From Gordius albopunctatus (Eukaryota), in NCBI GenBank assembly GCA_964276515.1, contig OZ193909.1, positions 16,926,001-16,990,000 on the forward strand: DNA of 64,000 nucleotides, in the 5' to 3' direction. Below are positions 14,477-64,000 of the stretch, piece after piece. Each line of letters opens with the position of its first letter. Position 1 is the first letter of the stretch. The notes under the pieces were generated by a model. It saw only the letters and a program-made list of their open reading frames with translations. It was not told the DNA's origin and did not search any database. The translations under genes and the position numbers were made by a program.

Positions 14477-14578
14477 ATTTAGTTTATATCATGACAATAG
14501 ATATTTATCAATACACATTAATAATAATTAATAACTTTATAATTATTCCATATAGCATATCTATACACACATAAAAAA

Positions 14579-15392
14579 CTTCTCTTCTTCTTCTTCTTTA
14601 TGAGTTATTTGGTCCCACATTGGTGGGGTTTGTTTTGATGAGTCTCTTCCATCTTGACCGGGTGAGTGCCATGTTTTGAGTAATCTCTTTAGTTTCCATA
14701 ACTTTACCGACTTGCCCTTTCCACGTGACACGGGGTCGTCCTCTTGCTCTCTTCCCCGGTACCTCCATGTCCAGTACTTTTCGATTTACGTCATCCGTGA
14801 CTCTTCTTAGTATATGCCCATACCACCTTAGCCGATTTTCGTTAATCATGTCCGCCATAGGTTGAATACCCATTTTTGTCATGAAAAAGTCATTCGTCAT
14901 CATATGGTCGAGCTTAGTATACCCCAAGCTCTACCGTATCATTCTCATCTCTGTGCCTTGTAATAACTTTAATTCCGTGGTGTTTAATGCCCATGTTTCA
15001 CTTCCACAGAGTAACACCGGTCTTACGATGGATTTGTAAGCTTTGCTCTTCAACCATATTGGCATTTTCTTGTCGCACATTACACCGGATATACTTCGTC
15101 ATTTAAGCCATCCTTTTTGGATCCGGGCATTGACTTCCGTTGCGCAACCTCCCTCTTGATGTAGCATTGAGCCGAGGTAAGTAAACCTGTCTACTTTTGG
15201 GTACTTTAGATGGGCATCCAGCGATGGGGTGCCTTTACCGTTCATTTGCATGTATACCATTTTTCGATCGTTGACTTTTAAATCATATCCATCTAAGAAC
15301 TTTGACCACTTTTCGGTTTCTTCGAATACTTTCTCCCTTGTTTCCTCGCATAGTACTATATCATCGGCATATAGCATATACCATACCATGGC
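14579..15392 (-). mobile_element. RTE-clade LINE 3' fragment
   Basis: LYADDIVL RT motif, FTYLGS, RLRWYGH, GKRARGRPR; (GAA)n tail (plus-strand cttcttctt at 14579-14598). Confidence 0.85.
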
Positions 15393-20000: not shown

Positions 20001-23000
20001 GTTTCATAAATTTTAGAGAAAGTTAGTATTTAGAACCCTGCACTGGTGGCCCAAAGCCCGACCCGGCTTAAAAAAGTTTCGGGACGGGTTGGATTTAATA
20101 AAATAAACGGGCTTAATACAATAAAAAAATTGTTTGTTATTTTAAATTGTTTTACAATAGTTCGATACATTAGATTTTAATTGAATAGAATGAAATCCTT
20201 GCAAAATGGCTTTTCATTTGTCCCAGCCCGGCCCGAACTTGATAAATCTTAATCCCCTAGCCGACCTGAGCGAGGTCTAAAATCTTGACTTTAGACAACT
20301 AACCATTTATAAAAAAATTTTCAAAAAACCCAACTCAATAAAATAAATATCTACCCTACAACGCACATAACACATCTATCAAGCTTTAGATTACAAAGTT
20401 AGGCCGGATCATAATTCTTTTTTATTTTGCTATTTATTATAATTTTTTTCTCAATTAAACCATCATAAATTAGTTTAAAATTGGCAATATGTAGATCATC
20501 TTAATAAACCATAAAGGTTAAACTAAAATATTAATAGATCATAACTTTCGAAATCCACTTTAATTCTTAATGTAGATATTAAAAGAAATTTAAAGTTATA
20601 GGCATATTGTAAAAAAACACCATTCACCTTATAATTAGAACAAAGAAATATTTAACAATTTCGCGACGAGGTCGGGGCCGAGCCTTAGTTATATCCGAAC
20701 CTGACACGAATCCGTCCAGGCCCGGTTCCTAATATTTTGCTTAAAAAGAGAAGCCCGTTCAGCCAGAGCCGTAGACGTCTTTAATAGAATATACCAACAT
20801 AAACACGTGTTTAAAAATATCCTTGAATAAATTTTTTACCGATTCCTAACAGGCATTTTTGGATAAAACAAAAAGAGGGCCAGTTATAAGGACGGTAAAT
20901 CCATTGTTGCAAACGACTATAGGTAGCAGTGCCCAGCTCTCCTTTTTTGATAGCATGGCTGCTAACCGCTACTACTGCCCAGGTATAATATTCCTTAAAT
21001 TTCATCAGTTTTGAATTATATTAATTGTTATAAATATCAATTACTTTCTTTAAAATAATAATTAGAGTGTGAAACTTATCTAGATCTACATCAACAATAT
21101 GTATTAGGTTTATAAATTTTATGTCTCCCTAAAATATAATATTGATTTAAAATATAAATTTATGCAGTATAATAAAAGTTAGAAGATAGATATATATATA
21201 TTTATAAATTTATTTTGCTCAAGTTTTTAATCAATACTTTACCGTTTTTAATGTGCGATGGGAATCCGATTAGAATTGTTCAGTTAAATTAAAAATATGA
21301 TATAAATATTCCTTGACAAAATTTTTGTTTAGAAAATTGCAAAAACCATCCGCCTTTGCCATGCAAGCATAAGTCTTACCTAAATCCCAACAATTGTAGA
21401 AGATGCAAATGTCCCAATATTTTATCGGGCGTCTTTTGCGATAAAGTAGAGCGTAGTAAAGGTAAAATTAAGATGACAAAACTAAATTGATTTAGAAATA
21501 TACCACATTAAATGATGCGAAATGATATATTTATGTAAATGCGGATAGCCCAAAGGAATTAGAAATGAGCAAAGCCCCCCCCCCCTCCACCCCCTTTTTA
21601 TATCTAGAAATCGTTTTTAAAATTAAAATATGTTAGAACTATTATTGCCCCCTCTAATTCAAATTTTAAATGTGCCCATGTTTATCCGTCTTTAAGCTAT
21701 ATTTAAGAGGCTAGTTTAACGTTTTCTTTAATCCTCGAGAGCATTCGTGGGGTACCACGGACCCCGCAATAGTTATAAACTTAAATATAAAACGCATTTA
21801 AAAGCGAATTGATCTGGCCTTTTCAGTAACCCAATATTTTACCAAGAACTAAGTTTGAGAAAAATTTTATAACTTTTGGCCCACTACTTTTTAAAATATA
21901 GCATCTTTCTCACTTGAGTTTTTTATGTTGGAAAAATGTATATATTTTTTTCGTTTGATGATATCTTTTACAATTTGTGTTTTTAATACATTTTGAACAT
22001 TCTTTTAATAAAAAATCACGTTTATTTTGATTTATTTTAAGGTATATGATGTCAAGAGGTAAAACTCTAAAATAACCAAAATAAAAATGGGGGTCCAGAA
22101 AATCCTTAATAAGTTTTGTAATGTTTATTAGATTCATATCAAAATTTATACCATCAATCTTAAGACCTTTATAAACACATGTTTAAAATTTGAAAGGTTT
22201 AAAAAGAATACTTAAGCCTTAAGAAGTTAAAAAATGGGGTCAAATATACCTCACGAATGCTCTCGCGTTCGGGATTTTCAGGAATGCTCTCGAGGGTTAA
22301 TTGAATTAGTAATGTAATATAATAAAAAAATTTGAAACTACTATCAACAGCTTTGGGGTTATCATTGTTTGTTATTTAAAATTATTTTACAATAGTTCGA
22401 TACATTAGCTTTTAATTAAATAGAATGAGATCCTTGCAAAATGGCTTTTCATTTGTCGGAGTCCGGCCCGAACTTGATTTATCTTAATCCCCTAGCCGAC
22501 CTGAGCGAGGCCTAAAATCTTGACTTTAGACAATTTTATATGTGATGATTATTTTACCTTACAAATACATAATGAGATTGGTTACTACTTTTATTTAACT
22601 ATAATTTTTAATGTAATATTCTGGCTTCAAAAATATAAATTTTAGTTTAATGGTCTTCCATGATTTTTTTGAATTACCATAGCTATTTTATATACACTTA
22701 TTATAAATGTGTATTAGAACAAGATTGATGATAAAATATTATTAAACCAAAAAGGATGAAAGGCAGGGAAGAATAGCTAGATAAAGCTTTTATAACTTAC
22801 AAGAACTTTTTCTTTTTTTAAACAAAAATGGTCAAATTTAATAAATTCTATTTTCTAATGGTTTGGTTATTATGATTTGCTTCGAGCCAGCTTCGGGTCT
22901 TGGGTTTAATTGAGCCAGCCCGATCCGAGCCTTAGGGCCCAATTATTTTATTAACTTTTATTCAAGACGGGCCCAAAATTCTCTCAAGCCGAATCGGACC

Positions 23001-26000
23001 TCGGCCCATCCTTGCAGGGTTCTAAAAAACTAATATTTTACACCCATCACTAAAATGAACTCAAGCTCAACTCAAAGTCAAATTAACTGTCAACATTTCG
23101 TTTTTCAGTGCAAAGATAAATTGTTCTTATTTATGCTACTTAAAAAATACAATTATTTAATTTAGATTTTTTTGTATTTTTCTGCATTCTGAATTTATTT
23201 TTGCAGGTAACTGTTCAAGCAACGTTGGTACGATTATATTAACACCAGATCACCCTAGCATAACAATTCAATCTTATAATTTTCCCAATAATTATTCCCT
23301 GGATGCCCGCTGTAACTGGATGATTAAAGTAAGTATAAGTTTTATCAAAATGCTTGAGGATTTTAACCACAAGCTGTGAATAAAATTTTATAAATTTAAA
23401 ATATATACGTCGGGGTAGCCAGCATTGGAATTATAGGGGGGCAAGAATGATTTAGGGAGGGGCAAAATGTTTTTTTTATTTTGGCCATAATTTTAATAAA
23501 TTTCAAAGAATTTTTGGACTTAGGCTATGCCTATGTATGAATATCTAAAACAATCTTTGAAATAGGTATAGAAATTAGATCAGTTCATATTTTGGATATC
23601 AATTGGCTAACTTCATTATCCCAGGTTCTTATTTGCCTAGATAACAACTTTAAGGCATAAAATTATATAAATTACGTTTTATAGACCTGGATGGCCCCAT
23701 ATAAATTGACACCAAGCAATTAAAGCCTATAAATACAATAAAATGACAATTATTTATAATGTTGTAGTCATTTAAAGCGAAGGGCAGAATTTAATTATTT
23801 TAGGAATGACAGTATGGGCGTAGCCAGCATTGGGATTAGAGGAGGCCAAAAATGATTTAGGGAGGGGCAAAATGATCATCTTTTGAAATTTCAGCCATAA
23901 TTTTAATAAATTTTCATTTTTTGGATTTAGAGGGGAGCAGCCGCCCCTCTCTGCCCCCTTCCTCCCCGCCAAAAAATGCTTTTCACTTAAATGATAACTA
24001 TTCATAAACCATAATCCACAAATGTAGGCATTTGATCCAAGCAATCCCTTTGCTAGCCCAAAACTTTTGTTCGAATTCAATCATTCGGCCACCTTCGATA
24101 TGCCCGTATCAAATAAATCCGGTTCTTGTCGACATTGGGTTGAGATCAAGCATCAAAAAGATTTTGCGATCACTGGTCCTAGGTAAATAAGCGTAAATTA
24201 TGAACTTTTCAATGTCATGACACCATTGTTATTTATATCTGCATATTCCAAAAGAAGACTCCTTTCTCTCTTATGCCCGGTGTAAAATATTAATTACCTA
24301 AACCTTTTTTCATCTAAGTGAAACAATTAGTGATCGATATTTTTGTTTGAGTTAAATAACCAAATAATACTTGTAATAAAAAAATTAGGGCCTAAACTTT
24401 TCTACTCTTTAAACAAAGCTTATAATTGAATTTTTTTAAAAATCATATCGTCAAGGAATAGGCAAAATTATAGAAAAAATTGGCGTTTTATTAATAAAAG
24501 ATTCGATCTATTAAAATATATATATATAAATATCTGCAAATTTAACACAACCTAAAATTTTATTTATATCTTCACTAAATTTAATGTTGCCCATAACATA
24601 TGACTAAGCTTTTAAGAAACAGTTAATAAAGCTTATGTGCAGGTCTCTTATAATGATTATTAACATCCATCTAATGACAAAATTGTTTGCCTGATGCGCT
24701 CTTTTTATTTCATAATAGATTTTGTGGGAACGTCCCCTATCCCAATAAAATTATATCCAGCACAGACACAATATTAGTAGCATTCCGATCTCACTCTATG
24801 TATATTTCAAACTCCAGTTATGGTTTTCAGGCGACGATCTCATACTGTAAACTTTATTTTAATGCTTCGTTACAATACATATCCAACACATTATAGAGAA
24901 TAATATAATTTATATGTCACGCATAAAACAAAAATATTGATAAAAAAGGAACCATAATTTTTTAAATCGATTTAAACAGGTGAGAATTGTAGCCCAAACG
25001 TTACCCAAAATATTACAAATCTATTTAACCCCAATGAGTTTACTTTCGCCTACGATTGGTCGACTCAAACTACCACGTCTTCGATTTGGTCCGGTAATAA
25101 TACGTCCGTATATCCTGGATCAACTGCCGCCAACTCCTCAATCACAGGCGACAACTCGACTCAAAACACTAACGATACCGAATCCAAAATTTGTTCACAA
25201 TGGACTGAATGGAGTCAATGCACGGAACCGTGTGGTGGGTGCGGAAAGCGATACAGCCTCAGACGTTGTCTGCCATTCGTTCATAAAAATAAGTGGATTC
25301 GCACTAAAAATTGCAAATCCGATCCTTGCCAACTGAATAGAACTTATTCTTGTTTTGTCCCAAGGTAATATTTCCTTCGTTGTCTGAATTTAACAAATCT
25401 TTCGGGTAAAATACTAGCTAGGCAACCTAGTAAGCATATAATGTGGCATTCCCATAGACCAATAGACTGCTAAATCCCTTTTAAGAGTTGTTCCAAATTT
25501 TGGTATCCATTTTGAAATTTAATTGAATTGTTAGGTCTATGCTTATAATATTTTCGGCTATGCCCTATATATTTGTTTTGATATAAAAATGTAAATCATT
25601 TAGAGTTTTATCCACATGAGCTTTTGAGAATCAAAATATTGGTATAAAAATTGATAATTAATTATAAACAAAATTAACTTTTATAGTGCCATTATTTTCT
25701 AACATGAATTTTCACCAATTCATATGGTTTGATGAATTTTAAAAATCGTTATAATGATTATAATGGGTTGTTTCCTGTTATAAGATCAATGATTATTGAC
25801 CAATACAATCCATCGCTGTACAAACTCTATGTAGATTTTCAAAATGGCGGTCTTTTTTTGCAACACTTTTGATGTGTGAATATATAAGAGTGGGCATTAC
25901 TAGCCCTTATAGTAGTCGTTAAGCCTGTCTGAGAGATATGACGCATCAAACGTAGCTAGGGTTTTACTCTGGAAAAAGATGGTATCAATTTGAATTTTAG

Positions 26001-26328
26001 ACTAAAAAGTTTATAAAAAAGCCTAAAAACGTAGCAAGAATTATATATGTAGATCGCAAAAGGATTTAATATAATTTCCGTATTCTTGTTGTGCAGATAT
26101 TATCCCTCCTATGCTTGTGTTTGCACGAAGAAAGATATATGCTGCCCTGGATACATTTATAATGTGGGTAAATGCCAAAAAATCATTGTTCCACCAGAGC
26201 AAAATAGATGGGGCTTATGGAATTGGACCCGTGCCCTGGGGAAGACCATTAAAAAAAGACTTGGTTATGGGATATACGAGTATATATCGGACCATGTTGA
26301 TTTTAATGGACGTGTGTATATTAATTAA
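17046..26328 (+). CDS. Secreted astacin (M12A) metalloprotease with EGF, CUB and TSP1 domains (nematode NAS-33-38-like architecture); 13 exons
   Basis: Exons 17046-17168 (signal-like FILIISLLICQL), 17754-17918, 18535-18712 (RRNKR furin-type site), 18761-18887 (HWESETCIRF), 19266-19332 (CASFVG), 19714-19908 (HEIGHSLGFFHEQSR, SIMHY), 20853-20982, 21333-21461 (EGF-like), 23207-23328, 24028-24182, 24719-24846 (CUB), 24980-25364 (S/T linker, WTEWSQCTEPCGGCG TSP1), 26097-26328 (CCPGY...stop). All introns GT-AG with compatible phases. Confidence 0.9.
20031..20780 (+). mobile_element. hAT-type MITE remnant in an astacin intron; internal ~165 bp (20130-20298) recurs at ~22366-22533
   Basis: tagaaccctgcac terminus of the family; near-identical direct copy in a later intron, with a right terminus tgcagggttcta at ~23013-23024. 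Confidence 0.55.
21732..22296. mobile_element. piggyBac-type MITE
   Basis: TTAA|TCCTCGAGAGCATTC ... GAATGCTCTCGAGGG|TTAA: TIRs flanked by TTAA TSD. Confidence 0.85.
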
Positions 26329-26345
26329 CTTATCATATATTAGCT

Positions 26346-26487
26346 CATGGGCATAGCCAGGGAGGGGCAACTGCCCCCTCTCTTGATCAAGTGAATCTTA
26401 AAAATTTAATAAAACGAAATAAATTCTAAAAATTATCATGTTGTCATTCCCAAAAGCATTAATGTTACAATCCTGGCTAGGCCCATA
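26346..26487. mobile_element. Short CATGGGC-type MITE just after the astacin stop codon (related fragments at ~17957-18093, 23410-23535, 23814-23970, 54780-54966)
   Basis: catgggcatagccagg / cctggctaggcccata inverted ends; degenerate 8-bp TSD tattagct/tgttagat. Confidence 0.55.
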
Positions 26488-27148
26488 TGTTAGATATTTG
26501 TAAGTCACACATTTCATTATAATGGTAACCCGTGGGTAAACAATCTTTCAAGCGCCATTGCATTGATATTATATATATTAGTAAAAATGAATTTATATAA
26601 GCCATTCGAAAATTATCATATATGAATAAATTTTAAATATTATTAAAAAAAGTTGTACAATATTTGAATGCTTTAAATTGGTATTTGATTGACTTTATAA
26701 TAAAGGACAACGTATTTCTAAAAATATAGAAATTTAAAAAAGGGTTTAACGCTGGCTATATTATCTAAAGCTATTAGACCACCTAAAACTATATCGAGTA
26801 TTGATAATAACTATTTTTTCAATAAACATTAAATTAAAGGTAAAATAAGGATGCTTCATTTGAAAAAAGAAAGATGGCATAGAACCTATGATCAAAATAA
26901 TTAAACCTTATATCGTGATATTGAAATTATAGTTACATTAATTTAGATCTTAAGTCTGATATAATCTTTAATTTATAAGTCAAGTAAACTAAAGTTTAAT
27001 TTTAAAATAAAATTGCACAGTTACACGCAACCAATATAATTAAATGCGTATCTATAACAATTAATAAGCTTTATTAACAATAGAATACAATGAAAAACTC
27101 AACAATGGTTATTAAAATAATTTAAATTTATTAACGCTAACATTTAAT

Positions 27149-30100
27149 ATGGACAATTTTAGTGATAGTGGGGCCGAAGACGATATTAGGCCTTTTTCTG
27201 TAACCGATGAAATGATCGAAAAATTGGAAGCATTGGCGGCTAAAGTAACCCAACGACAAAATCTGGCAAATGGCCCTAAAGCCTTTCAATCAAACTCTAA
27301 TAATTTACAAAACTTTTGTGATAGCAATTCCTCCATTATAAAAGTTGATAGAAGCTGCCCGATTCACGGAAATGACTATCTCCTTTCATGTCCTATCCAT
27401 GGTAAACTCAGTTATCGTGATGCTGAAGTGCAAACGGAGATATCCATGGCATCTGATTTGCAGTCGTCAAAATTTGATATGGCGCACCACGCAGGTGGTC
27501 CGGGTAATGATAACATCTTATCCATACAAAAACTTACGAGCAATCAGCCAATGATGAGGGGTTTAAATGTGGGATGTAAAGTGGTGGTGCAGGAAGACAC
27601 GGAAATACCCGAAAATTTTACAACGAAGAATCCCGTCATTAAGGGGTTAAACGTGGGTTGTGAATTGGAAATTTTAGGAAAATCTAATGAATCAGGCCTA
27701 TCTTCTATGACATCCCAAACAAGTAAAGTTGGCTCTGGGTTTGAAAGTATTCCAACTAATAACTATTCCCCAACACCTAAAACACGGGTAAAAATGAAGA
27801 AGGGAGCAGAAAAAAAAACTATCGCTTACGATGAAAAGCCCGAGAAAAGGCGTTTTCAATCATCAATACTTAAAGTTAAAAAAGGGAAGTCTTACTCGCC
27901 TGAACAAGTTAGGGACGACACTCCATTAGTTAATTTTATCGGGCACTCTCTCACAAAGCAGCACATTGGTGAATTGACTGGCAATGTCAAATTAAACCCG
28001 AGAGCTTCGGATAAAATAGATACACTTTTAGATTGGTCCGACCTTAAACTAACTGAAGAAGTTTTGGGGAAAGGACAATTTGGCGTTGTAGTCAAAGGTA
28101 CCGTAATTATACAAGGAAAATCTGAACTTGCCGCAATAAAAACAATGCAAATTAAAAATGATTCCAAGGCGTTAGACGCTTTGGAAGAAATGTGGAAAGA
28201 GCTTAAGGTGATGACTCGGATTGGTGCGCATCCCAATGTAGTTCGGTTGTTTGGGGCTTGTGAAAACCAAGGGCATTTGTATGTTGCAATGGAATTTCTA
28301 CCGTGTGGCGATTTGAAAAAATTTTTGAGAAAGGAGACAACCATTACTTACGAGCAAAAACTCAAATTTTGCTACGATATAGCATGTGGTATGGAACACA
28401 TTGCGTCTCGTGGTTTTATACATCGTGACCTCGCTGCTCGGAACATACTTTTAACAGAAGAATTAAGTGCCAAGGTATCCGATTTTGGACTGAGTAGGTT
28501 TGGCGAAGAATACATGTGTAAATCAAAAAATAAACCTCTACCAGTTCGCTGGATGCCTCCGGAGTCCATATTACGTGGAATCTACACGGAAAAATCTGAT
28601 GTGTGGTCTTACGGCGTAACTATATGGGAAATATTTACGGGATGTGAAATACCGTACAGGAACAAAGCTGATAGATCACAAATTATCGCTTACATTAAAG
28701 ATGGTAGCAGACTTAAACAACCCCTGACTTGTCCTGATAGAGTTTACACTTGTATGAAACGTTGTTGGGCTACTGAACCCTCCGACCGACCATCTTTCAG
28801 TGAAATTAAAGATACTTTTTACGCCCTTATTGTTCAAACTCGTGAATCAGTTCCTGAGCAGTTACCAAAAGGAACTGGTTCAAAAATGTCTGAAACAAAT
28901 TATCCTCCCATACTTTGTAAAAGCAACGAATACTGGGATATACCATATGATAAATTAAATTTTCCGATCAATACAGGTGCAAAATTGGAACTCCAAGGCA
29001 AAGATTTAATAATTGGTATACAAAAGTTGAGACAAAATGCTAACCCAGTTTCGGCACTATGCGTTTTCTATTCAAATCTTGATAAACGCGAGAGCAATGT
29101 CATAGAATTGGACAAGCTTAAAAATGAAGTCAACATTCTAAAAACTATTTCTTCAGCGTCTCCTAACATCCTAAGACTCTTTGGCATTTCAGAACATGAA
29201 GGAATATATTATGCCTTTTTCGAGAATCCTTCCTTGGGCAGGCTTAAAACATTTTTAATCCAAAGAGCGAGCAAAAAGGAAACGATTGAAGAGCGAATTA
29301 AGGTCAAATTTTGTTCAGGGATATGTCAAGCGCTACGCTTTCTTGCAGGTTATAAAATCATACATCGTGATGTAAGCGCAAGAAATGTGTTCCTTAATAA
29401 CGATTTGTGTCCAAAGCTTGGAGGTTTCCGTAATGCTAGAAAAGGTGAAACATATATACCAGCAAATCTCCCAAAACAAAATCCAGTGAGATGGATGGCA
29501 TTGGAATCTATAAGAGAAAAGGTTTTTACCCAAAAATCAGACGTATGGTCATTCGGAATTGTATGTTGGGAAATATGGTCAGACTGTGTCTCGCTACCGT
29601 TTGAAGGTAAACCACTGCCCGAGCTGATAAAGGATTTGGAAAAAGGCGAGAAGCTGGCTAAACCCATATCTTGCCCAGATTCGTTGTGGGCTATAGTCAT
29701 AAAGTGCTGGGCCTTAAACCCACATGATAGACCAATGTTTAAAGAATTAATGGTGGATTTTGAAGGGCTTTACAAAGCTTACACCCCCATAAGATCATGG
29801 TATATCGCTCTAAAGGAAAAAGGCATTGTCTTTGATGCCTCCCAAAAATCATTGATTAACAGTCTTAAAAGTCTCATAAAAATTTATGATTGCTTTCATG
29901 ATCGAGCTGCAGATTACTGGACTATTAAGGATAAACTTTTGAGTGTAGAAGATCGCACGCTTTATTTAGATAAATTTCAACGAATCACTCCAGGGCAATT
30001 GTGTAGAGAGCTGCCTGGTCAAAAAATTACAATACCAGCTACTGTTCGTAATATTTTGATAGCAGGTATAGAAGATAAGCAATTTTGGGATCAAGTAGTG

Positions 30101-32632
30101 ATTAAAGAACTTGATATGCTAAAATTTATTCCACGTCACAAAAATATTTTGCAGTTATATGGTACTTGCAAGTTAAAAGACAAATATTATATAGTAGAAG
30201 AATGGGCGGAGATGGGTGAGCTCAAAACTTTGCTTGTTAATTCTTCATTGACTGAAGCAACTAAGATGCTAATAATTTTTGGAATATGTGAAGGGATGGA
30301 ACATTTAGCGAAATATGGCATAATCCATCGGGATCTAGGAACTAGAAGCATTAAAGTAGCGCATGATTTTGTCCCTAAAATAACCAGATTAAAATCTGCC
30401 CAAAAAGGAGGAATATATTTTGAAAGTGACAAAACCATATCCGAACCACTCCCAATTCGATGGCTGGCTCCCGAAAATTTAACATTAAATATTTACACCG
30501 AAAGATCAGATGTATGGTCGTTTGGAATCTTAATTTGGGAAACATTTTCCAACGCCCAAAAGCCATACGGTGACAAAAGTCCAGAAATGGTTATGGAATT
30601 CATTCAAAAAGGTGAGAGGCTAGATAGACCGCCGAAATGTCCACCCGAGCTATATGCTCTGATGTCTAAAATGTGGAACGCCGATATTACTCAAAGGCCT
30701 ACCTTTGCTTCTTTGGCTATTTTAATTCGTGCCTTAATCCCACAGGAAGAAGGAAAAGATTCTGAATTGGATACGCGTGTTGCATCCGAAAAAAATGCTG
30801 CTGGTGACATATTTATGATCCCAAAATCTAAAGTAGAAATATTAAGTCGCGTTAGGAGAGGTGATGAGTCAGGAAAAGATGAACTTTGGCTAGGACGTTA
30901 TGAACTTAAGAAAGTTATAGTTAGATTACTAAAGATTGGGGATGACGCAGATGCCGATCATATCATTTTAAATAACGCCTACAACGAAATCAACATAATG
31001 AAAATGATTTGCCCACATCCTAGGATTGTAAATTTTGTTGGTTATTTCAAGGAGTCGGATAAAATGCATATAATTAAAGATTTTTATCCCAATGGTGATT
31101 TAAAAACATATTTGAGAGACATAAAAATAAGAGGAAATATGCCTAAACCAGAATCATTTTTACTTTTAAGCCTTCATATTTGCGAAGGTATGTCGTACTT
31201 AGTTAGCAAGAATGTAATCCATCGCAATTTTGCCCTCAAATGCATCAGTTTGGATGAAAACTTTGATCCCAGAATAGACGAATTTAATCGAGCAGTTCTA
31301 GGGCCGAGTTATGCCGAATTAGTGCCAAACATTAAAAATTTACCGTTTAGATGGCTTCCATTAGAATCTATACAAGGAGATATGGTATATACGGAAAAAA
31401 GTGATGTGTGGAGCTTTGGAATTACTATGTGGGAAATGTTTAGCTTTGGTGCCCAACCATATGGCGATATAGCTGACATTAAGGACATTGTAAAGAAATT
31501 AGAAACAGGCTTTATTCTGCCCTCTCCTCAATCATGTCCAGAAAGCGTGTATAAATTAATAACATCTTGTTGTGCTCGTAACAAAGACGATAGGCCAACC
31601 TTTGCCCAACTCCAAGGTAGTCTGAGGAAATTGGTAGAAATGCATGGTGTCGATGAACAACAGTTGCTAAAAAATTTCAGCCTCATGTCAAAAGAAAGCG
31701 GTAAAAAACCTGAAGAATATTGGGTTATTCCATGGGATGACATTAACTTATCGGTGAAACAATTAGGAAAGGGAAATTTTGGACAAGTTAACAAGGGCAC
31801 GCTTAAAAAACATGATGGAACGAAAGTTAAAGCGGCCATAAAAATGATTAAAGCCGGTGATGAAGGCAAAGATGTAAAGGCGGCTAGAGCAATTCAGGAG
31901 CTAAAGGATGAGGCCGAAATTATGAAAATTCTAGGAATGCATAGGCATGTTATTCAACTTTACGGGTACTCGATGAATAAGGGCATATTTTACGTGGCTA
32001 TGGAATATGCCGAAAATGGGAATTTGAAAAATTTTATCGAAATGCGAAAAAACACGGGAAAAATGTTATTAGAATCTAATATGATAGCCTTTGCAGCTCA
32101 AATATGTGATGGGATGGATCATTTAGCGCGTTGCCAAGTAATACACCGAGACCTTGCCTGTAGAAACATCTTGTTAGATTATCGTTATGAGTGTAAAATA
32201 TCGGATTTCGGTTTGGCGCGTATAGGCACTATATACGTGAAACAATCATCGGGCTCGCAATTACCTGTTAGATGGATGGCTATGGAATGCTTCACCAAGA
32301 AGATGTATAGCGAAAAAACCGATGTATGGGCATTTGGTGTTCTCATGTGGGAGATGTATTCATATGGTCGTCAGCCCTATGAAGGTAAAAATGGAAAAAA
32401 GATAATGGAAAGTTTAGAAAATGGAATTCGCCTAATAAGACCACCAATGTGCTGTGAACCAGCTTACGAAATTATGAGGCGATGTTGGGAAGCTGATCCG
32501 AATAATAGGAAGTCCTTTACTGGAATCGGAATCGACCTAAATATCCTTATCAAAAAATTACCTCCACCTCAAAATCTGGTTAAAAAGCCTTGGTACCGAC
32601 TGCCATTTTTAAATAAGTGCAAAAAAGCGTGA
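27149..32632 (+). CDS. Intronless 1827-aa cytoplasmic protein with five tandem protein-tyrosine-kinase-family domains (K1 and K5 catalytically intact, K2-K4 pseudokinases)
   Basis: Single uninterrupted ORF. Catalytic-loop motifs at aa ~425 HRDLAARN, ~739 HRDVSARN, ~1060 HRDLGTRS, ~1358 HRNFALKC, ~1666 HRDLACRN; each followed by P(V/I/F)RW and (S/T)DVW(S/A)(F/Y)G. K1 and K5 have GKG(Q/N)FG, AAIK and DFG. AATAAA lies ~35 nt after the stop. Confidence 0.93.
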   Translation: MDNFSDSGAEDDIRPFSVTDEMIEKLEALAAKVTQRQNLANGPKAFQSNSNNLQNFCDSNSSIIKVDRSCPIHGNDYLLSCPIHGKLSYRDAEVQTEISMASDLQSSKFDMAHHAGGPGNDNILSIQKLTSNQPMMRGLNVGCKVVVQEDTEIPENFTTKNPVIKGLNVGCELEILGKSNESGLSSMTSQTSKVGSGFESIPTNNYSPTPKTRVKMKKGAEKKTIAYDEKPEKRRFQSSILKVKKGKSYSPEQVRDDTPLVNFIGHSLTKQHIGELTGNVKLNPRASDKIDTLLDWSDLKLTEEVLGKGQFGVVVKGTVIIQGKSELAAIKTMQIKNDSKALDALEEMWKELKVMTRIGAHPNVVRLFGACENQGHLYVAMEFLPCGDLKKFLRKETTITYEQKLKFCYDIACGMEHIASRGFIHRDLAARNILLTEELSAKVSDFGLSRFGEEYMCKSKNKPLPVRWMPPESILRGIYTEKSDVWSYGVTIWEIFTGCEIPYRNKADRSQIIAYIKDGSRLKQPLTCPDRVYTCMKRCWATEPSDRPSFSEIKDTFYALIVQTRESVPEQLPKGTGSKMSETNYPPILCKSNEYWDIPYDKLNFPINTGAKLELQGKDLIIGIQKLRQNANPVSALCVFYSNLDKRESNVIELDKLKNEVNILKTISSASPNILRLFGISEHEGIYYAFFENPSLGRLKTFLIQRASKKETIEERIKVKFCSGICQALRFLAGYKIIHRDVSARNVFLNNDLCPKLGGFRNARKGETYIPANLPKQNPVRWMALESIREKVFTQKSDVWSFGIVCWEIWSDCVSLPFEGKPLPELIKDLEKGEKLAKPISCPDSLWAIVIKCWALNPHDRPMFKELMVDFEGLYKAYTPIRSWYIALKEKGIVFDASQKSLINSLKSLIKIYDCFHDRAADYWTIKDKLLSVEDRTLYLDKFQRITPGQLCRELPGQKITIPATVRNILIAGIEDKQFWDQVVIKELDMLKFIPRHKNILQLYGTCKLKDKYYIVEEWAEMGELKTLLVNSSLTEATKMLIIFGICEGMEHLAKYGIIHRDLGTRSIKVAHDFVPKITRLKSAQKGGIYFESDKTISEPLPIRWLAPENLTLNIYTERSDVWSFGILIWETFSNAQKPYGDKSPEMVMEFIQKGERLDRPPKCPPELYALMSKMWNADITQRPTFASLAILIRALIPQEEGKDSELDTRVASEKNAAGDIFMIPKSKVEILSRVRRGDESGKDELWLGRYELKKVIVRLLKIGDDADADHIILNNAYNEINIMKMICPHPRIVNFVGYFKESDKMHIIKDFYPNGDLKTYLRDIKIRGNMPKPESFLLLSLHICEGMSYLVSKNVIHRNFALKCISLDENFDPRIDEFNRAVLGPSYAELVPNIKNLPFRWLPLESIQGDMVYTEKSDVWSFGITMWEMFSFGAQPYGDIADIKDIVKKLETGFILPSPQSCPESVYKLITSCCARNKDDRPTFAQLQGSLRKLVEMHGVDEQQLLKNFSLMSKESGKKPEEYWVIPWDDINLSVKQLGKGNFGQVNKGTLKKHDGTKVKAAIKMIKAGDEGKDVKAARAIQELKDEAEIMKILGMHRHVIQLYGYSMNKGIFYVAMEYAENGNLKNFIEMRKNTGKMLLESNMIAFAAQICDGMDHLARCQVIHRDLACRNILLDYRYECKISDFGLARIGTIYVKQSSGSQLPVRWMAMECFTKKMYSEKTDVWAFGVLMWEMYSYGRQPYEGKNGKKIMESLENGIRLIRPPMCCEPAYEIMRRCWEADPNNRKSFTGIGIDLNILIKKLPPPQNLVKKPWYRLPFLNKCKKA

Positions 32633-32849
32633 AACTTGATAGATGATACATTAAAAGTTGTGAATTTAATAAATCAAGTTATAATATATCGTGATGACGT
32701 ATAATTCGATTAAACAAAATCATTACCATAAACTTTGATTACCATAATTGCAGAATAATATGGAATTGGTTTTAAAATCGATTTTGTTAAAGTATTATTC
32801 ATTATTATTCGTTTTTACTGAACACCAAGTGTATAGCCAGTGATATCTA

Positions 32850-34098
32850 CAACAGGTCAGATTTGTTTGGATTTTTCTGCCCGAACCCGGCCCGATTCAA
32901 TTTTTTAACTTCATTGCCCGCCCGGGCCCGCCCGAGTCGTTAAAGCTACCCGAATTGCCCTGCCCGAAATATTAAATTTGGCCGTTAGTCCCGAATTTGA
33001 GAGATCCCAAACAGAGGTCAGATTTGTTTAAATTTTTCTGCCCGAACACGGTCCGGTCCAAATTTTTAACTAAATTGTCCGCCTGAACCCTTCTAAGTGT
33101 CCACTCGGCCATGCCCGAACCATTAGAGCTGTCCGGCCTGATTAATAATATTAATTAAGAGTTAAGATCAAGCACGATATTTTATATAATAAAAAGATTA
33201 AAAAATATAAAGCTTAAAAACCGATGGACAGGTACAGCATTTGCACAAACATGGAACGGACAAATCAAATCTCCTAAATTAATGCAAAAAAATTTGCCCC
33301 GAGTTTTTTTAAATATTATATCATCGCTGGCAAAACCAATCATAGGTCACAGAATTTTAATTGATAAATAAAAAATTATTTAAATTTGTTATACTTACTT
33401 TTAGAATAAAATTTTTTATTTGAAGCAAAAAAAAGAATGGTTGTGAATTAGTTATGTATTATAAAAATAAGTAGGAATCAAAAAGGCTGAACGAAATTTT
33501 ATTTGTTAAAAAAATTAATGAATTAGAATTAAACACTTATACGCGCCGCATACATTGTGTGAAAATGGCATGACGCCTCTGTTTTAAGCCTAGACGGCAC
33601 ACATGTGTATTGCGAACAATGAAATGGCCACTTCTGTGCAAAATGTAATATGTGCAAAATGTAATATAGGCAAGGGTTAGATTTAGTGATTTATTTGATA
33701 ATATGTATTTATTTGATAAAATAGTATTATACATTTTGATATAACTTATTTTGTTTCAATTAACAATTATAGTATCCTTTTATTACGTAGTTTTTTAGTA
33801 CATATTACATGCGTATGAATATGCGTGAAAACCGGTCTCAATTTCTAAAATGCGAATATTACATTATTAGATTTTGCACATATTACATTTTGCACCAGAT
33901 TCGAAATGGCTACATAAATATAAATAATTCAATACTCCATAAACGTATCTAGGGATCTGAAAGAAATGGACTGGGGCAGAGATTTAACATGGGGGGTGGC
34001 AGCATTCGCGAACGCGATATACAATCTAATAAAAAAGTAAGAAGATAATTTACTAGGATTTATGCCCGAATTGCCCGGCCGGGCATTTCTGGTCTCTG
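32850..34098. mobile_element. GC-rich hAT-like MITE remnants (GGGCATTTCTGGTCTCTG right terminus, also seen at ~15690-15708) with an internal duplication
   Basis: aggtcagatttgtt...ctgcccgaac duplicated at ~32854 and ~33015; shared terminal sequence with the 15690 copy. Confidence 0.5.
33629..33902 (-). mobile_element. Internally deleted copy of the 11791-12485 TIR element, 8-bp TSD GAAATGGC
   Basis: gaaatggc|cacttctgtgcaaaatg ... tgcaccagattc|gaaatggc. Confidence 0.8.
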
Positions 34099-36214: not shown

Positions 36215-37811
36215 GCTGTTTAGCGATTCATAATTGAGTCGAGGCAATATCATCTCAGTGTACCCTGGATTTAAATGTTTGGTATCTCGACGACGCCACC
36301 CTATGTGGCCGCTCGGAGGAGATTAGTAAAGCTATAGAAATTATCAACAATTTTGGACCCATTCTAAATCTTAAATTAAACTCGAAAAAATGTGAAATCT
36401 ATCAGGCCCCTAACATTATTGACTTTCCAATTTTTAAAAATTTTTAGTTTTAGAGAGAGAAAACATATCCCCTTTGGGATCACCCATTGACGGTAAAAAA
36501 TCTCTTTTAAATTTTATTCATAAAAACCTCTAAATTTAAAGATCGAAAACGCAACTTTCAAAATGCTTGCCTGCACATCACTTTTTTTACATAATCAAAA
36601 ACTATTTTAACATTTCAAAGATTAATAATTGTTTTCGCTCATCTGGTGCATTTTTACACCCAGAAGTTTTAAAGTCGTGCGAAGACTTTTTAAAAACTTT
36701 ATTAGAAAAAATTTTAAATTTAAAATTTGATACTAATAATTGGATTCAAGCATCACTTACAACCAAATCTGGAGGATTAGGAATTCGTTCTCCCGGCAGC
36801 ATATCGCTAGCTGCTTTTATTTCCTCTTTTAAGTCGGTCCAAAACTTAATTTTTAATCTCACAACACATAATTCAGACCCTCTGCTAACTCAAGCCTTAG
36901 AGCTTTGGAATTTGAATGTCACACCCGAGACCATTCAACCTCAAAGTAAGAGACAAAAGGCTTGTGATTCTGGACCCGTATCGCGCTGCGTTGATTACCT
37001 TTTATCGAGCAGCGATGATAGCCAGAATTACAACCTTAGGTCCCTAGATTTTGATGGTTCCGGTCACGAGTGGCTTGAAGCCTATCCCAGCAAACTTTTG
37101 GTAATACTGCTTGAAAACTTTGAGCTATCATATTCCATAGCTTTAAGGTTGGGGATCAGTTACAGCAGAGAATTCGATTGTCGAAACTGTCTTTCCAATG
37201 TAGAAGAATATGCTAGGCACCCTCTACACTGCCTAGCAAACAAATATAAATGTGTTTGGCACACTAAAGCCAATTTATTAATTCAAGCTGCCCTTAAAAA
37301 GGCAAAAATCCTTTCAATTCTTAAGCCGTCAGATTCCTCTCTTGAAGGTAGGATGCGCCCTGACGGCTCTTCCCTAGTCCCCTGGCAAAATGGCCTATCC
37401 CTCAAATGGGATTTTACTTGTATTGATCTATTTGCCCCTTCCAATTTTAATTACCACCCTATTGCTACAGAAGAAGGGCGTAAAACTACAAAGTACTCTG
37501 CCCTTTTGGCATCTAATATTTTTATCCCTGTCGTTGCCTCGTGCTCCGGTTCCTTCGGTAAACAGGCAATGGGTTTTTTTAAAGAATCGGAAAACGCTCA
37601 CCGAAATCTAAAATTTCTGCGTCCTTTTTACTCAGGCAACAAGCAGGGATTCTTGTTGTACGATACAATTTTAAATCCTTTGCCGACTCATGACCCATTT
37701 TAGAAGATAATAATATAGATCTTTGTATTTAACTAATATGACTTTATTTATTTTTGTATTTCGCTTTTTTATGTAACTTTGTTTCGTGAAAATAAACTTT
37801 TTAACAAAAAT
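36215..37811 (+). mobile_element. 5'-truncated CRE-clade retrotransposon copy flanked by a ~60-bp direct duplication
   Basis: LNVWYLDDATL at ~36271, ORF 36567-37703 with GGLGIR, C..C..HPLHC, RMRPDG..PW..WD; AATAAA and short A tail; flanks 36155-36214 and 37812-37872 nearly identical. Confidence 0.9.
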
Positions 37812-38513: not shown

Positions 38514-41500
38514 ATGAGTATTTTACCCGAGGAAATAAATTATGTAGTATATCGTTATTTACAAGAATCAGGTTTTTAAATATTATGTTTATTTATATGT
38601 TAATTAAGGGTTTTTTCATTCAGCCTATTTGTTTGGTGAGGAGAGTAAAATTTCTTTAACTAATATAAATAAGAAACTCATACCCACCGGCTCTTTAATC
38701 TCACTTATATACAGAGGACTATTGTATTCCGAAATCGAAAATAATATTAACGAGGTTTGATAAAACCCATAATCCCAGATTTATTATAATTTTTTTGTGA
38801 CATTTATTGTTTGTGTATATTTAAATATTTTTAAGGATGGCACTGAAAAAAGTGCATCAGCCCCAAAGCTCACTATTTTAGAGGCTATTTCACTGAAAGT
38901 TAACAACTCTTTTTATCCCCAAGCCCCATCCAATCTTACTAATAAATCAATTGCTAATGGATTAAATAATGACAATTTGATGATCTCTGCTGTTGCCAAT
39001 AACACAGAAAACCTGCACATAAGTAGAGGAATGGATCTGTCAACCATAATTTCAAATGCTAGTGCCACAGAATTTAGAACATCAAGTCCTAAACATGTTA
39101 AACTTGAAGAGCTGGGATATAATAATACTAATGTAGAAAGTAATAATTTGGCTGCAAATTTTAATGAAACATATCAAGCAAGTAGGCTGCCATTAAACAT
39201 CAAGGAAGAAAGTAAGATTTTAATTGTGTAAATGTATGGTTGCCCTCATTTTTATTAATTGTTAAAATTAATAGATTTAAAAGCAATGGAAATAGATCAA
39301 TCAGGGACAAATGATCAGGGAGTAAAATCTTTGGTAAAGATAACAGGAGCTGACAAAAATAAGGATGATAATATATATACTTCAATGCCAACTATACCAT
39401 TATCCCAACAAAACAATAATGTGGTGGTTCTCAAAGGACATATGTCAGAAGTTTTTATTTGTGCATGGAACCCTGTTAAAGATCTACTAGCATCAGGGTA
39501 TCTTAATATGAATCATACTAATTTTGTCCACTGACTTATAATATAAGTATCTATATAATAATTATATATATTAACATTATAATTGTCATATTCCTTTAAA
39601 TGTATTATATAGTCCCCATGTATTTTTTTATTTTTTACCTAGTCACCTTAGGATTACTATCTATGTAGTTAACTTTTTTAGCTCTAATTTTAAAATCCAT
39701 ATGCTTAAATAATCTTGCTTTTTTTAATGATTTTGTATCACACTTTAATTTTAATTTAACACGTTGGCTCCTGAATCATCAAAAAAAATTACACGTATCC
39801 AATATTTTGAATTAATTAATATTCTTAATTTGAATATATTTTTTAAATTTTGGAAATTAAAGTATTTTGTAATATTATGATTTTAATGAACTTATGACAT
39901 AATCTTATAACTCATTCCATCTCTAACTAACCCCTACCCATATAAATTTCTTCATAAAAGCAACACATTATACCCTCTGATGGTTTGTTCCTTATGTTGG
40001 TGGTAATGTTGTAAAAACGGCTAGGATTTGTTTTGGTCGCCTAAACATTATGTTTAGTCAACTAAACCCAATGGAGGGGCATGGTGGCGTAGTGGGTAGA
40101 GGTTTAGTCTTTGAAGCAAGAGCTCGCAGGTTCAATCCCGCCTCTGACACTTATTTTAAAAAAGATTAAAAATCACATCGTCACCACGGCTGTCAGGCCT
40201 GGATAGCCGGGCATCACCCCTTATCCAAATATCTAAGGAAGCTGACCACCACCTTCGTGTGACAACAGACAGCTATTGGATATTATTAACTAAAACCAAC
40301 GGTTGACACAACAACCCAGCCGTAGCACTAGTTGGAGGACAGTCTTTTTGAGGATATAAACCCTCATTTTTATCAATTTTTTTTTACCAAGACGTATTCA
40401 CACATATAAACATAAAACGAAAGAAAAGGGACATATTTTACCAAGATCTTAATGGGACCACTGTAGAGGCTTTGAAGCTGTATTAAACTATGAGGACCAG
40501 TGGCGTAGCTAGCCTTTTTGCCTTGGGGGGGCAAAAAATTGTAACTACAAAAAACCTTAAAAATTAGAAAAAATTATGTTCTGGCCCCCCTAATCCAAAA
40601 CCTGCATACGACCATGGGTCAAACGCAAATGAAAGTTTTTCCCTCATAAACGTTGGACAAACTTAAAATTCCGCTAATACTTTGTGTATTTTTTTTGAAT
40701 ACCATCCCACTGGTATGTCTTAGATCCTCATGTTTATAAGGCATAAAATAAATAAAATTTATTCATAATTAAAACAAAGAAATGTAAGTTGAAGCAATAT
40801 AGAACATTTCACTTGGTATAATAAGTTTTTGTATGAATGAATTGTAAGGGCACAAAGTGGAACGGGGATATTGACAAGAAATCGTTGCCATTTTAAAAAA
40901 TAATACAAATAGTAAAAAAAACTACGACAAAGTTTTTATAAAAATACTTTATTGCCACAACGCCAAAAAATCTTGGCCATATCTAAAACAAATTTTAATT
41001 TTACATAGGCAATATTGGCAGCATTTTTATATCAGGAAAACAATGAGAACGATGATATTATAGATATATTTGCACCCCCCACCCTTTTACACCACCTAAA
41101 GATTAAGATGAACTAATAAATTTAACGGCTAAATGAACCTTAAAATTATTCTGTCAAAATTAAATGAATCAAAATTTTTAGATGCATGAACATATAGGGG
41201 TATGAGCAGTCTATTAGACTATGCTTGGAGTCTATTAGTTTGTGCAAAATGATATGTAATATATAGGTTTTAATACTTGATACTCATCTTTTAGCTATTT
41301 GGAAGGTGTGCTTGTTATTGACTTCTGCGCTTTTGTAATAATCATCTTCAAGTTTTTTAGTTTCTTTTTATTAAAATTTCAAGTATTAATCGTTTCGCTT
41401 TCTGTAGTGTGGAGTCCATAGCATTCCACTGATCCTCACTAGAAAGTTTTTTGAACTCAGCTTGCCTCATAATTTTCTCTAAAATTTTTGAACTATTTTT

Positions 41501-61322: not shown

Positions 61323-61330
61323 AGAACGAT

Positions 61331-62569: not shown

Positions 62570-62590
62570 AGCTTCATTACTGCTAATGTA

Positions 62591-63886: not shown

Positions 63887-64000
63887 AGTACCAATGAGAA
63901 CATGGCGACGTAAACTTTCAATATTAGATGGGTAAGAAAATGCTAGGCGGTTGCCTGTGGGTAATGGCTGAGCACGTGAAGGTGGCTGAGGCAGAGTTTT

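What the first reader, a model, noticed from the sequence alone, without database searches (positions are those of the whole stretch)
27149..32632. Five-domain tandem tyrosine kinase: kinase-(pseudokinase)x3-kinase with no receptor or SH2 modules
Seen in sequence: five ~300-aa TK-family repeats (catalytic-loop motifs at nt ~28421, 29363, 30326, 31220, 32144); K2-K5 each open with a (Y/F)(W/M)xI(P)-type motif. K1 and K5 keep the G-loop, AAIK lysine, HRD..N and DFG. K2 (VSALC for VAIK, DFG->GGF), K3 (ATVR, HRDLGTRS, DFG->RLK) and K4 (VIVR, HRN, DEF) have lost catalytic residues. Established: JAKs carry one pseudokinase plus one kinase, and plant tandem kinase proteins (Rpg1, WTK1/Yr15, Pm24) carry two and act in immunity. 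I do not know of a characterised animal protein with five TK domains. Inference: a possibly undescribed soluble multi-kinase in which three pseudokinases act as a regulatory, sensor/decoy or scaffold array between two active kinases. From memory, K1/K5 most resemble Tie-family RTK kinase domains (WxDIx..LGxGNFGQV, AAIK, LFGACENQGHLYVAMEF, LPVRWM).
Basis: partly seen in the sequence, partly recalled or inferred. Interest (0 to 1): 0.92.

Follow-up and report, generated by a model that had tools for sequence, protein, structure and literature searches.

The report
Five-kinase protein with three dead domains
A gene in what is likely an animal genome encodes one long protein with five tyrosine-kinase domains in a row, the three middle ones lacking catalytic residues yet conserved in a related organism, which would make it a receptor-less signalling switch, and unrelated proteins with ten or eleven such domains suggest that this design arose more than once.

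Summary
Confirmed. An uninterrupted 1827-aa ORF (27149-32632) carries five PF07714 domains. K1 and K5 keep every catalytic motif. K2-K4 lack the β3 Lys and DFG Asp, and K4 also the HRD Asp, yet are predicted to fold as kinases. It is not a chimera: one short-read contig spans the gene. A second organism (about 94-95% identical) keeps it with K3 dN/dS 0.13-0.19. All five repeats share a Tie-like single-tyrosine activation loop (Gly+7, Tyr+10; 1 of 354 other scored domains). No signal peptide, membrane helix, SH2 or orthologue was found. Long kinase arrays are not unique: unnamed assemblies hold 10-11-domain proteins with seven dead domains first and an intact kinase last. These are Src/Tec-like; a shared clade is rejected (p-AU 0.021). 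Best reading (0.4): a Tie-derived kinase that lost its receptor part and is gated in cis by a pseudokinase array. Expression, activity and domain contacts are untested; host lineage unresolved.

The parts
27149..32632 (+). Single open reading frame, 1827 aa, five tandem tyrosine-kinase-family domains; no intron needed
   Evidence: spanned by one contig of run X1 (26000-32902, 1 difference, no gap)
27149..28033 (+). N-terminal region aa 1-295: no Pfam match, no hydrophobic segment; two SCPIHG repeats (27353-27370, 27386-27403; a possible CxxH-x7-CxxH metal site, inferred), two GLNVGC repeats (27560-27577, 27644-27661), lysine-rich stretch before K1
   Evidence: 12 of 14 listed differences to organism B in 27380-27499 are synonymous (these rows are a subset shown by the tool)
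28034..28828 (+). K1, predicted active kinase: GKGQFG, AAIK (K331), αC E351, HRDLAARN, DFG, activation-loop Y455, LPVRW
   Evidence: 46% identical to echinoderm Tie-like kinases; Tie2 best single-domain PDB hit
28931..29773 (+). K2, pseudokinase: no G-loop, β3 Lys replaced (L637), HRDVSARN intact, DFG replaced by GFR, activation-loop Y769 kept
   Evidence: fold predicted, β3 region low confidence
29915..30736 (+). K3, pseudokinase: no G-loop, β3 Arg967, HRDLGTRS, DFG replaced by RLK (KFK in organism B), activation-loop Y1090 kept; under purifying selection
30812..31633 (+). K4, pseudokinase: altered G-loop, β3 Arg1259, HRNFALKC (catalytic Asp and Asn lost), DFG replaced by EFN, activation-loop Y1388 kept; longest branch of the five
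31718..32548 (+). K5, predicted active kinase: GKGNFG, AAIK (K1565), αC Glu, HRDLACRN, DFG, activation-loop Y1696, LPVRW
   Evidence: about 40% identical to vertebrate Tie1; Tie2 best single-domain PDB hit
32549..32629 (+). Basic-aromatic C-terminal tail ending in CKKA; possible membrane-binding tail (inferred; CKKA is a poor CaaX by recalled rules)
   Evidence: sequence
32668..32673 (+). AATAAA 36 nt after the stop codon, candidate polyadenylation signal (AT-rich context, weak evidence)

Best explanation
This is a conserved, single-ORF gene for a likely cytoplasmic protein built by old internal duplication of one likely Tie-type receptor kinase domain, in which two predicted-active kinases (K1, K5) would be gated in cis by three catalytically impaired copies (K2-K4) in place of the missing ligand-binding receptor part. 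Shown: five domains; catalytic motifs intact in K1 and K5 and broken in K2-K4; no membrane or signal segment; purifying selection on K3; a shared Gly+7/Tyr+10 activation loop in all five. Inferred, step by step: (1) a receptor kinase domain lost its ectodomain and introns, most simply as a 5'-truncated retrocopy, then duplicated within the gene; (2) joining kinases in one chain gives the forced proximity that ligand-driven dimerisation normally gives, as in oncogenic EGFR kinase-domain duplication; (3) the dead domains restrain this by packing on the active ones, as the JAK pseudokinase does on its neighbour (K4 on K5 is the same N-to-C order); (4) an input still unknown, perhaps through the conserved N-terminal region, releases K1/K5, which phosphorylate activation-loop tyrosines, including those kept on K2-K4, turning the array into a phosphotyrosine switch and docking platform. 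That the gene is real and functional: about 0.9. This mechanism: about 0.4.
For: Motifs. Folds: K1-K3 mean pLDDT 82, K3-K5 86, both lobes modelled in each domain, β3 region of K2 low. Selection in K3: 26 synonymous and 14 non-synonymous of 40 listed differences, dN/dS 0.13; 0.19 if all 6 unlisted were non-synonymous. Run X4 pieces: 5.8% differences over N-terminus-K2, 5.4% over K3-K4, 4.8% in K5, with no gaps in these three. Common origin: Gly+7 with Tyr+10 in 5 of 5 repeats and 1 of 354 other scored domains; five-domain clade not rejected (p-AU 0.59). Intron contrast: the TBL1X/ebi neighbour is in at least 11 pieces. Precedents read as passages: JAK pseudokinase suppresses the adjacent kinase, and MLKL is switched by phosphorylation of its pseudokinase activation loop (PMC13519141). 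Forced proximity activates EGFR-KDD, and a dead N-terminal copy still supports activity (PMC7925532). Convergence: in 11 of 11 unrelated 10-11-domain proteins the first seven domains are pseudokinases and the last is intact.
Against: No domain-domain contact is predicted. pTM is 0.41 and 0.46, about what independent domains give, and the two-domain PDB matches do not superpose (rmsd 17-26 Å); the alignments held no orthologue, so this is weak either way. An activation-loop tyrosine is common in pseudokinases anyway (54 of 81 scored), so its retention in 3 of 3 says little about phosphorylation and may be structural. The free trees do not recover all five as one clade: K4 falls elsewhere and K2+K3 is a join of long branches. 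No retrocopy hallmark such as a poly-A tail or target duplication was seen, and plain intron loss fits too. Selection was measured in full only for K3, from one pair of organisms.
Confidence: 0.4

Rival explanations
1. The dead domains are allosteric activators rather than brakes: each would dock on the next as HER3 does on EGFR or the first copy does in EGFR-KDD, so that K4 switches K5 on and the protein is a ligand-independent, constitutive or concentration-driven kinase.
For: A dead N-terminal copy still activates the C-terminal one in EGFR-KDD (PMC7925532 passages). αC Glu, αF DVWSFG and the P+1 loop are kept in K2-K4. Unrelated arrays also end in an intact kinase (11 of 11). EGFR-KDD (9p9u) tops the PDB lists, but only because it has two domains.
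Against: The asymmetric-dimer mechanism is specific to the EGFR family (recalled), and these domains are Tie-like. The model does not superpose on 9p9u (rmsd 19 Å). K1 has no domain before it.
Confidence: 0.2
2. K2-K4 are a passive scaffold or ruler: they bind partners or substrates through their C-lobes and space the two active kinases, with no control over catalysis; the kept tyrosines are structural.
For: C-lobe motifs are conserved while the ATP sites decayed. No predicted packing. Activation-loop Tyr is common among pseudokinases (54 of 81). Scaffolding is a known pseudokinase role (PMC13519141).
Against: Linkers of 25-47 aa keep neighbours within contact range. No partner is known.
Confidence: 0.17
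3. An immune sensor like plant tandem kinase proteins: the dead domains are decoys that bind pathogen or parasite effectors and trigger K1/K5.
For: Plant kinase-pseudokinase proteins act in pathogen resistance, with early evidence for effector recognition by the pseudokinase (PMC13519141 passage; listing). The unrelated Src-like arrays seem to be expanded, with several relatives on contigs of the same length, as immune genes often are.
Against: K3 is under purifying, not diversifying, selection. No second kinase gene in the 64 kb. Contig depth over the gene is like that of the neighbouring gene's last exon, which fits a single copy. No integrated sensor domain.
Confidence: 0.12
4. The ORF is the very large last exon of a receptor gene whose ectodomain and membrane helix lie in upstream exons, so that the product is a receptor with five intracellular kinase domains.
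For: The domains derive from receptor kinases. No transcript has been seen, so the 5' end is open. The upstream gene encodes a secreted-type astacin protein on the same strand.
Against: The upstream gene has its own stop at about 26328, in an exon also found in organism B. The 820 bp between are 25% GC, with stop-free runs of at most 43 codons and a best hydrophobic window of 1.47. The 295 aa before K1 are hydrophilic.
Confidence: 0.08
5. An assembly chimera or collapsed tandem repeat, or a decaying pseudogene.
For: Run X1 may be the sample from which the window was assembled; no transcript evidence.
Against: One short-read contig spans the gene with 1 difference. A second sample covers it in four overlapping contigs, the 4390-bp one without a difference. 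Organism B holds it at about 94-95% identity. The repeats share only short DNA patches (28-90 nt at 70-93%) and 31-39% protein identity. dN/dS 0.13-0.19.
Confidence: 0.02

Closest known systems
Tie1/Tie2 (angiopoietin receptors) and echinoderm Tie-like receptor kinases
   Same: Best per-domain matches (K1 46%, K5 about 40%); Tie2 best single-domain PDB hit; short activation loop with one Tyr at DFG+10
   Different: No ectodomain or membrane helix; five domains instead of one, three of them dead; Gly at +7 rather than +6; tree support for the grouping only 62/90
Janus kinases (JAK1-3, TYK2) and three-kinase JAK-like proteins of Lingula and bivalves
   Same: Pseudokinase directly N-terminal to an active tyrosine kinase in one soluble chain; P0041, P0042, P0044, P0046, P0048 and P0059 carry three kinase-fold domains
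   Different: No FERM or SH2; JAK domains form their own starred clade apart from the query; three dead domains, flanked on both sides by active ones
Oncogenic kinase-domain duplication, EGFR-KDD (PDB 9p9u; PMC7925532)
   Same: Receptor-type tyrosine kinase domains joined head to tail in one chain
   Different: KDD is a somatic, exact duplication inside an intact receptor; here the repeats are old (31-39% identical), germ-line, under purifying selection and have no receptor part
Plant tandem kinase proteins (RWT4, WTK1/Yr15, WTK3/Pm24, Lr41)
   Same: Soluble kinase-pseudokinase chains
   Different: Two domains of a plant kinase lineage acting in immunity; the query's are animal-type tyrosine kinases, five in number, with no sign of diversifying selection in K3
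Unnamed Src/Tec-like kinase arrays in public assemblies (P0002-P0012: 10-11 domains; P0015/16: SH2 + 4; P0020-type: 4 + SH3) and Clavelina lepadiformis LOC143460772 (4 domains + SH3)
   Same: Long arrays of tyrosine-kinase domains, mostly pseudokinases; the 10-11-domain proteins end in an intact kinase
   Different: The sampled domains of the unnamed arrays form a starred clade inside Abl/Tec/Src; union with the query rejected (p-AU 0.021); SH2 or SH3 present in part; uncharacterised as far as my searches show. The Clavelina protein was not put in the tree; its best matches are Src-like domains

Membership tests
Protein tyrosine kinase domains (TK group) | PF07714 match with TK-type catalytic loop (HRDLAARN-like) and P+1 loop (PVRW) | tested here: met
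   Five PF07714 stretches; HRDLAARN and HRDLACRN with LPVRW in K1 and K5
Protein tyrosine kinase domains (TK group) | Phosphotransfer to tyrosine | not testable with these tools
   Needs an in vitro assay
Pseudokinase (sequence definition, PMC13519141) | Loss of one or more of VAIK Lys, HRD Asp, DFG Asp | tested here: met
   K2 and K3 lack two, K4 lacks all three (Glu at the DFG site)
Pseudokinase (sequence definition, PMC13519141) | Kinase fold kept | tested here: met
   AlphaFold2 models with both lobes, mean pLDDT 82 and 86; K2 β3 region under 50
Pseudokinase (sequence definition, PMC13519141) | No compensating residue; no catalysis or ATP binding | tested here: inconclusive
   Lys626 lies one residue from the site in the alternative K2 register; basic residues sit at or beside the DFG site in K2 and K3; binding cannot be tested here
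Tie receptor family | Ig/EGF/FN3 ectodomain and a transmembrane helix | tested here: not met
   No such Pfam hit, no hydrophobic segment in the ORF or the 820 bp upstream
Tie receptor family | Short activation loop with a single Tyr at DFG+10 | tested here: met
   5 of 5 repeats; among 242 other active-type domains scored, 62 have Tyr at +10, most of them Tie or Tie-like
Tie receptor family | Kinase domain falls in the Tie clade | tested here: inconclusive
   K1, K2, K3, K5 and P0313 are sister to the Tie groups at 62/90 and K4 lies elsewhere; held clade not rejected, p-AU 0.49; FGFR clade rejected, 0.034
Janus kinases | FERM and SH2-like domains | tested here: not met
   No Pfam hit in aa 1-294
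Janus kinases | Pseudokinase immediately N-terminal to an active tyrosine kinase | tested here: met
   K4-K5
Janus kinases | Kinase domain in the JAK clade | tested here: not met
   JAK rows form a starred clade (96/89) without query domains
Plant tandem kinase proteins | Two plant-lineage kinase domains | tested here: not met
   Five tyrosine-kinase domains; plant receptor-like kinases served as the distant outgroup
Plant tandem kinase proteins | Effector recognition and immunity | not testable with these tools
   Needs expression and infection data
Unnamed Src/Tec-like kinase arrays (P0002-P0034 type) | Domains in the Src/Tec-related clade of these arrays | tested here: not met
   Union of 5 query and 13 array domains rejected, p-AU 0.021
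Unnamed Src/Tec-like kinase arrays (P0002-P0034 type) | Run of pseudokinases before an intact C-terminal kinase | tested here: met
   K2-K4 before K5; the same order in 11 of 11 of the 10-11-domain proteins

The most novel reading that the evidence does not exclude
Animals have repeatedly built a so far undescribed class of poly-kinase chains: one from a Tie-type receptor that shed its ectodomain (this gene, active-dead-dead-dead-active), others from Src-like kinases (up to eleven domains, seven dead ones first). In them an array of pseudokinases replaces the ligand-binding receptor as the input device and works as an intramolecular phosphorylation relay or multi-site sensor that gates the terminal kinase.
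Probability: 0.3. Interest if true: 0.85.

Novelty: new variant of a known kind. Interest (0 to 1): 0.64.

Why it matters
Known tandem kinase-pseudokinase proteins (JAK, GCN2, plant tandem kinases) mostly have two kinase folds, and duplicated receptor kinase domains are known as cancer lesions. Here a receptor-derived kinase domain was multiplied five-fold in the germ line, three copies lost catalysis, and selection keeps them. It is a natural test of what pseudokinases do in cis and of how a duplication that would be deregulating can be tamed. The search also exposed unrelated 10-11-domain arrays with the dead domains first and an intact kinase last, which suggests a convergent design that I did not find described. 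All five domains are small and can be expressed separately, so brake, activator and scaffold can be told apart with routine biochemistry. The limit: no function, expression or host lineage is known yet.

Tried and rejected
No genome is held for the window, so paralogues and parent genes could not be sought. The exact protein is not in the collection. No orthologue appeared among 120 listed hits of 1004-3198 aa (only the 7975 candidates sharing most words were scored), 120 hits for K5 or the best 150 of 1.84 billion representatives (highest identity 45%). Metagenome scan: one 23% match, not a relative of note. Viral contigs: none, so no support for a viral origin. No RNA holder listed; this says nothing on expression. 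Host lineage: one exon of the TBL1X neighbour found only generic WD40 matches; unresolved. The protein atlas did not complete for the N-terminal region, so aa 1-295 remain unexplained. The complex predictor was not available, so K4-K5 binding is untested. AlphaFold pTM (0.41, 0.46) is uninformative on packing. The quick tree's starred placement of all five domains in a Tie/FGFR/RET clade did not hold in the careful 59-row tree; I rely. The upstream intergenic part 26534-27067 is not covered in organism B at 85% likeness; not used as evidence. Paper searches that found no description of a five-domain or longer animal tyrosine-kinase array: (listings and abstract starts only). PMC8662651 (holozoan tyrosine kinome) has no 'tandem' or 'multiple kinase' in its main text; its supplements were not read and may list such architectures. 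Subscription papers are missing from the library, including the pseudokinase survey cited there as Kwon et al. 2019, which I did not see. Earlier scan notes: none for this genome or sequence; five other-genome notes did not bear on this.
Full report
Observation. The stretch 27149-32632 (+) is one open frame of 1827 residues without N; chance at window composition is about 1e-62. Pfam finds five PF07714 stretches, each significant alone (E 2.4e-86 to 3.5e-50), and nothing in the first 294 residues. In an alignment with 26 other kinase proteins, K1 and K5 keep the G-loop, β3 Lys, αC Glu, HRD Asp, catalytic Asn and DFG. K2 keeps Glu, Asp and Asn only; K3 keeps Glu and Asp; K4 keeps only Glu. By the sequence definition in PMC13519141 (passages read), K2-K4 are pseudokinases. 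AlphaFold2, with shallow alignments of 29-30 non-orthologous rows, models both lobes in every domain (mean pLDDT 82 for K1-K3, 86 for K3-K5). The K2 β3 region is under 50 and threaded differently from the sequence alignment. No segment looks like a signal peptide or membrane helix.

Is it real? Six public runs of two studies hold the stretch or part of it; none is on record as RNA. In run X1 one contig covers 26000-32902 with one difference and no gap, joining the last exon of the upstream gene to the whole ORF; X1 may be the window's own sample. A second sample (X2) covers it in four overlapping contigs. Run X4 of organism B gives four pieces inside the gene; the three wholly coding ones are gap-free at 5.8%, 5.4% and 4.8% differences. 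For K3, 40 differences were listed (4 more not shown; 46 counted per contig): 27 at third positions, 26 synonymous, 14 non-synonymous, dN/dS 0.13, or 0.19 if all six unlisted ones changed residues. In organism B the K3 DFG site reads KFK, still without an acid. In a 120-nt slice of the N-terminal region, 12 of 14 listed differences are synonymous. The repeats are 31-39% identical in protein and share only short DNA patches, so neither collapse nor recent duplication explains them.

Context. Upstream lie exon-sized pieces of an astacin protease gene (PF01400; CUB- and thrombospondin-like pieces by my reading, without a Pfam hit) ending with its own stop near 26328. Downstream lies a TBL1X/ebi gene in at least 11 pieces. 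Retroelement and Helitron-like remains are present. This is an intron-rich genome, likely an animal's; the lineage could not be fixed. The kinase gene needs no intron, and no other kinase gene is in the window.

Origin. Per domain, the best matches are Tie and Tie-like receptor kinases, and Tie2 is the best single-domain PDB hit for K1 and K5; K4's PDB list is led by other kinases. All five repeats have a single tyrosine at DFG+10 and a glycine at +7. Among 354 other domains that my anchors could score (of 774 held; the set is rich in near-identical Tie1 rows), 63 have Tyr at +10 and one, the unnamed P0313, has both. A careful tree of 36 receptor-kinase rows places all five within a starred 31-row FGFR/RET/Tie group. 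K1, K2, K3, K5 and P0313 are sister to the Tie groups at only 62/90, and K4 sits on a long branch elsewhere. Holding the five together is not rejected (p-AU 0.59), nor holding them with Tie-like rows (0.49); holding them with three FGFRs is rejected (0.034). So a common, probably Tie-like ancestor is the best reading but is not proven by the trees.

Relatives. No orthologue is in the protein collections. The top hits are other arrays. P0002-P0012, from unnamed ENA and Logan assemblies, have 10 or 11 PF07714 domains, and 4 of 11 have an N-terminal SH2 hit. In 11 of 11 the first seven domains lack a catalytic residue and the last is intact. P0015/16 have SH2 plus four domains, and the P0020 type has four domains with an SH3. 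None of the eight such clusters looked up carries a name. Named proteins with three or more kinase folds also occur: Clavelina lepadiformis LOC143460772 (four plus SH3), JAK-like proteins of Lingula and bivalves (three), a Salpingoeca kvevrii protein (three, with LRR and lectin) and an Amphimedon model (four, perhaps a merged gene model). Thirteen sampled domains of the unnamed arrays form a starred clade inside Abl/Tec/Src, and their union with the query is rejected (p-AU 0.021). The design therefore arose at least twice. The other five-domain rows in my census were a fragment of the ten-domain family and two proteins with non-tyrosine-kinase catalytic loops.

How it most likely works. Shown: two intact kinases flank three impaired but conserved ones, in a chain without receptor parts. 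Inferred: receptor kinases are switched on by being brought together. In EGFR kinase-domain duplication, forced proximity in one chain suffices, and a dead first copy still serves (PMC7925532, passages). A chain with two live kinases and no ligand needs another gate, and in JAKs the adjacent pseudokinase suppresses the kinase until phosphorylation relieves it; MLKL is switched by phosphorylation of its pseudokinase activation loop (PMC13519141, passages). I therefore favour a cis-gated switch: K2-K4 restrain K1/K5, and their kept activation-loop tyrosines become phospho-sites on release (0.4). Against over-reading: an activation-loop tyrosine is present in 54 of 81 other pseudokinase domains scored, no inter-domain packing is predicted (pTM 0.41, 0.46), and the model does not superpose on two-domain structures. 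Rivals are an activator array (0.2), a passive scaffold (0.17), an immune decoy (0.12), the last exon of a receptor (0.08) and an artefact (0.02). Loss of introns and ectodomain by retroposition is a plausible history, not shown.

Comparison and novelty. It works most like a JAK in logic and like a kinase-domain duplication in build, but it is a member of neither: FERM, SH2, ectodomain and membrane helix are absent. Eight searches of the held library (listings and abstract starts) found no account of an animal protein with five or more tyrosine-kinase domains, and the holozoan kinome paper PMC8662651 does not use 'tandem' or 'multiple kinase' in its main text (supplements unread). Subscription literature was not searchable. 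Verdict: a real, conserved gene; a new variant of the kinase-pseudokinase tandem, extended to five receptor-derived domains, with convergent longer arrays elsewhere. Interest 0.64: surprising architecture and directly testable, but no function, expression or host is known.

Noticed in passing
P0002-P0012 (unnamed ENA/Logan assemblies): A family of about 2900-3170-aa proteins with 10-11 Src/Tec-like tyrosine-kinase domains, some with an N-terminal SH2; the first seven domains are pseudokinases and the last is intact. Several relatives sit on contigs of the same length, which suggests gene clusters. Unnamed in every source; may deserve its own study.
   Followed up: partly
P0020, P0022-P0034 type and P0015/P0016 (unnamed assemblies): Four-domain arrays: a Ser/Thr-like kinase plus three Src-like pseudokinases with an SH3 before the last; and SH2 plus two intact and two dead kinases.
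   Followed up: partly
P0243 = XP_076814510.1, Clavelina lepadiformis LOC143460772: Named tunicate protein with four kinase domains and an SH3, annotated as uncharacterised.
   Followed up: partly
P0041, P0042, P0044, P0046, P0048, P0059: JAK-like proteins of Lingula and bivalves carry three kinase folds (pseudokinase plus two) instead of two.
   Followed up: no
P0313 (unnamed Logan contig, 335 aa): The only other scored kinase with the Gly+7/Tyr+10 activation loop; groups weakly with K5 (52/22). A lead to the parent receptor family.
   Followed up: partly
window 27353-27403 and 27560-27661: Two SCPIHG repeats (CxxH-x7-CxxH, possible metal site) and two GLNVGC repeats in the unannotated N-terminal region.
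   Followed up: partly
window about 14200-26330 (+): Multi-exon astacin metalloprotease gene with CUB-like, thrombospondin-like and Cys-rich C-terminal pieces (PF01400 hit at 19687-20013; the other pieces read by eye).
   Followed up: no
window 38514-51169 (+): TBL1X/ebi WD40 gene in at least 11 pieces, with a long linker between LisH and WD40 parts that matched no listed relative.
   Followed up: partly
window 33636-33895 and 32839-33150: High-copy interspersed repeats just downstream of the gene. One has 31-nt terminal inverted repeats (97% complementary), MITE-like, and contigs skip about 280 nt there.
   Followed up: no
window 2129-4991, 36238-37703, 58350-59055 and 60348-64000: Broken non-LTR retroelement copies (RVT_1 at 2802-4325) and a Helitron-like PIF1 helicase element at the right end.
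   Followed up: no
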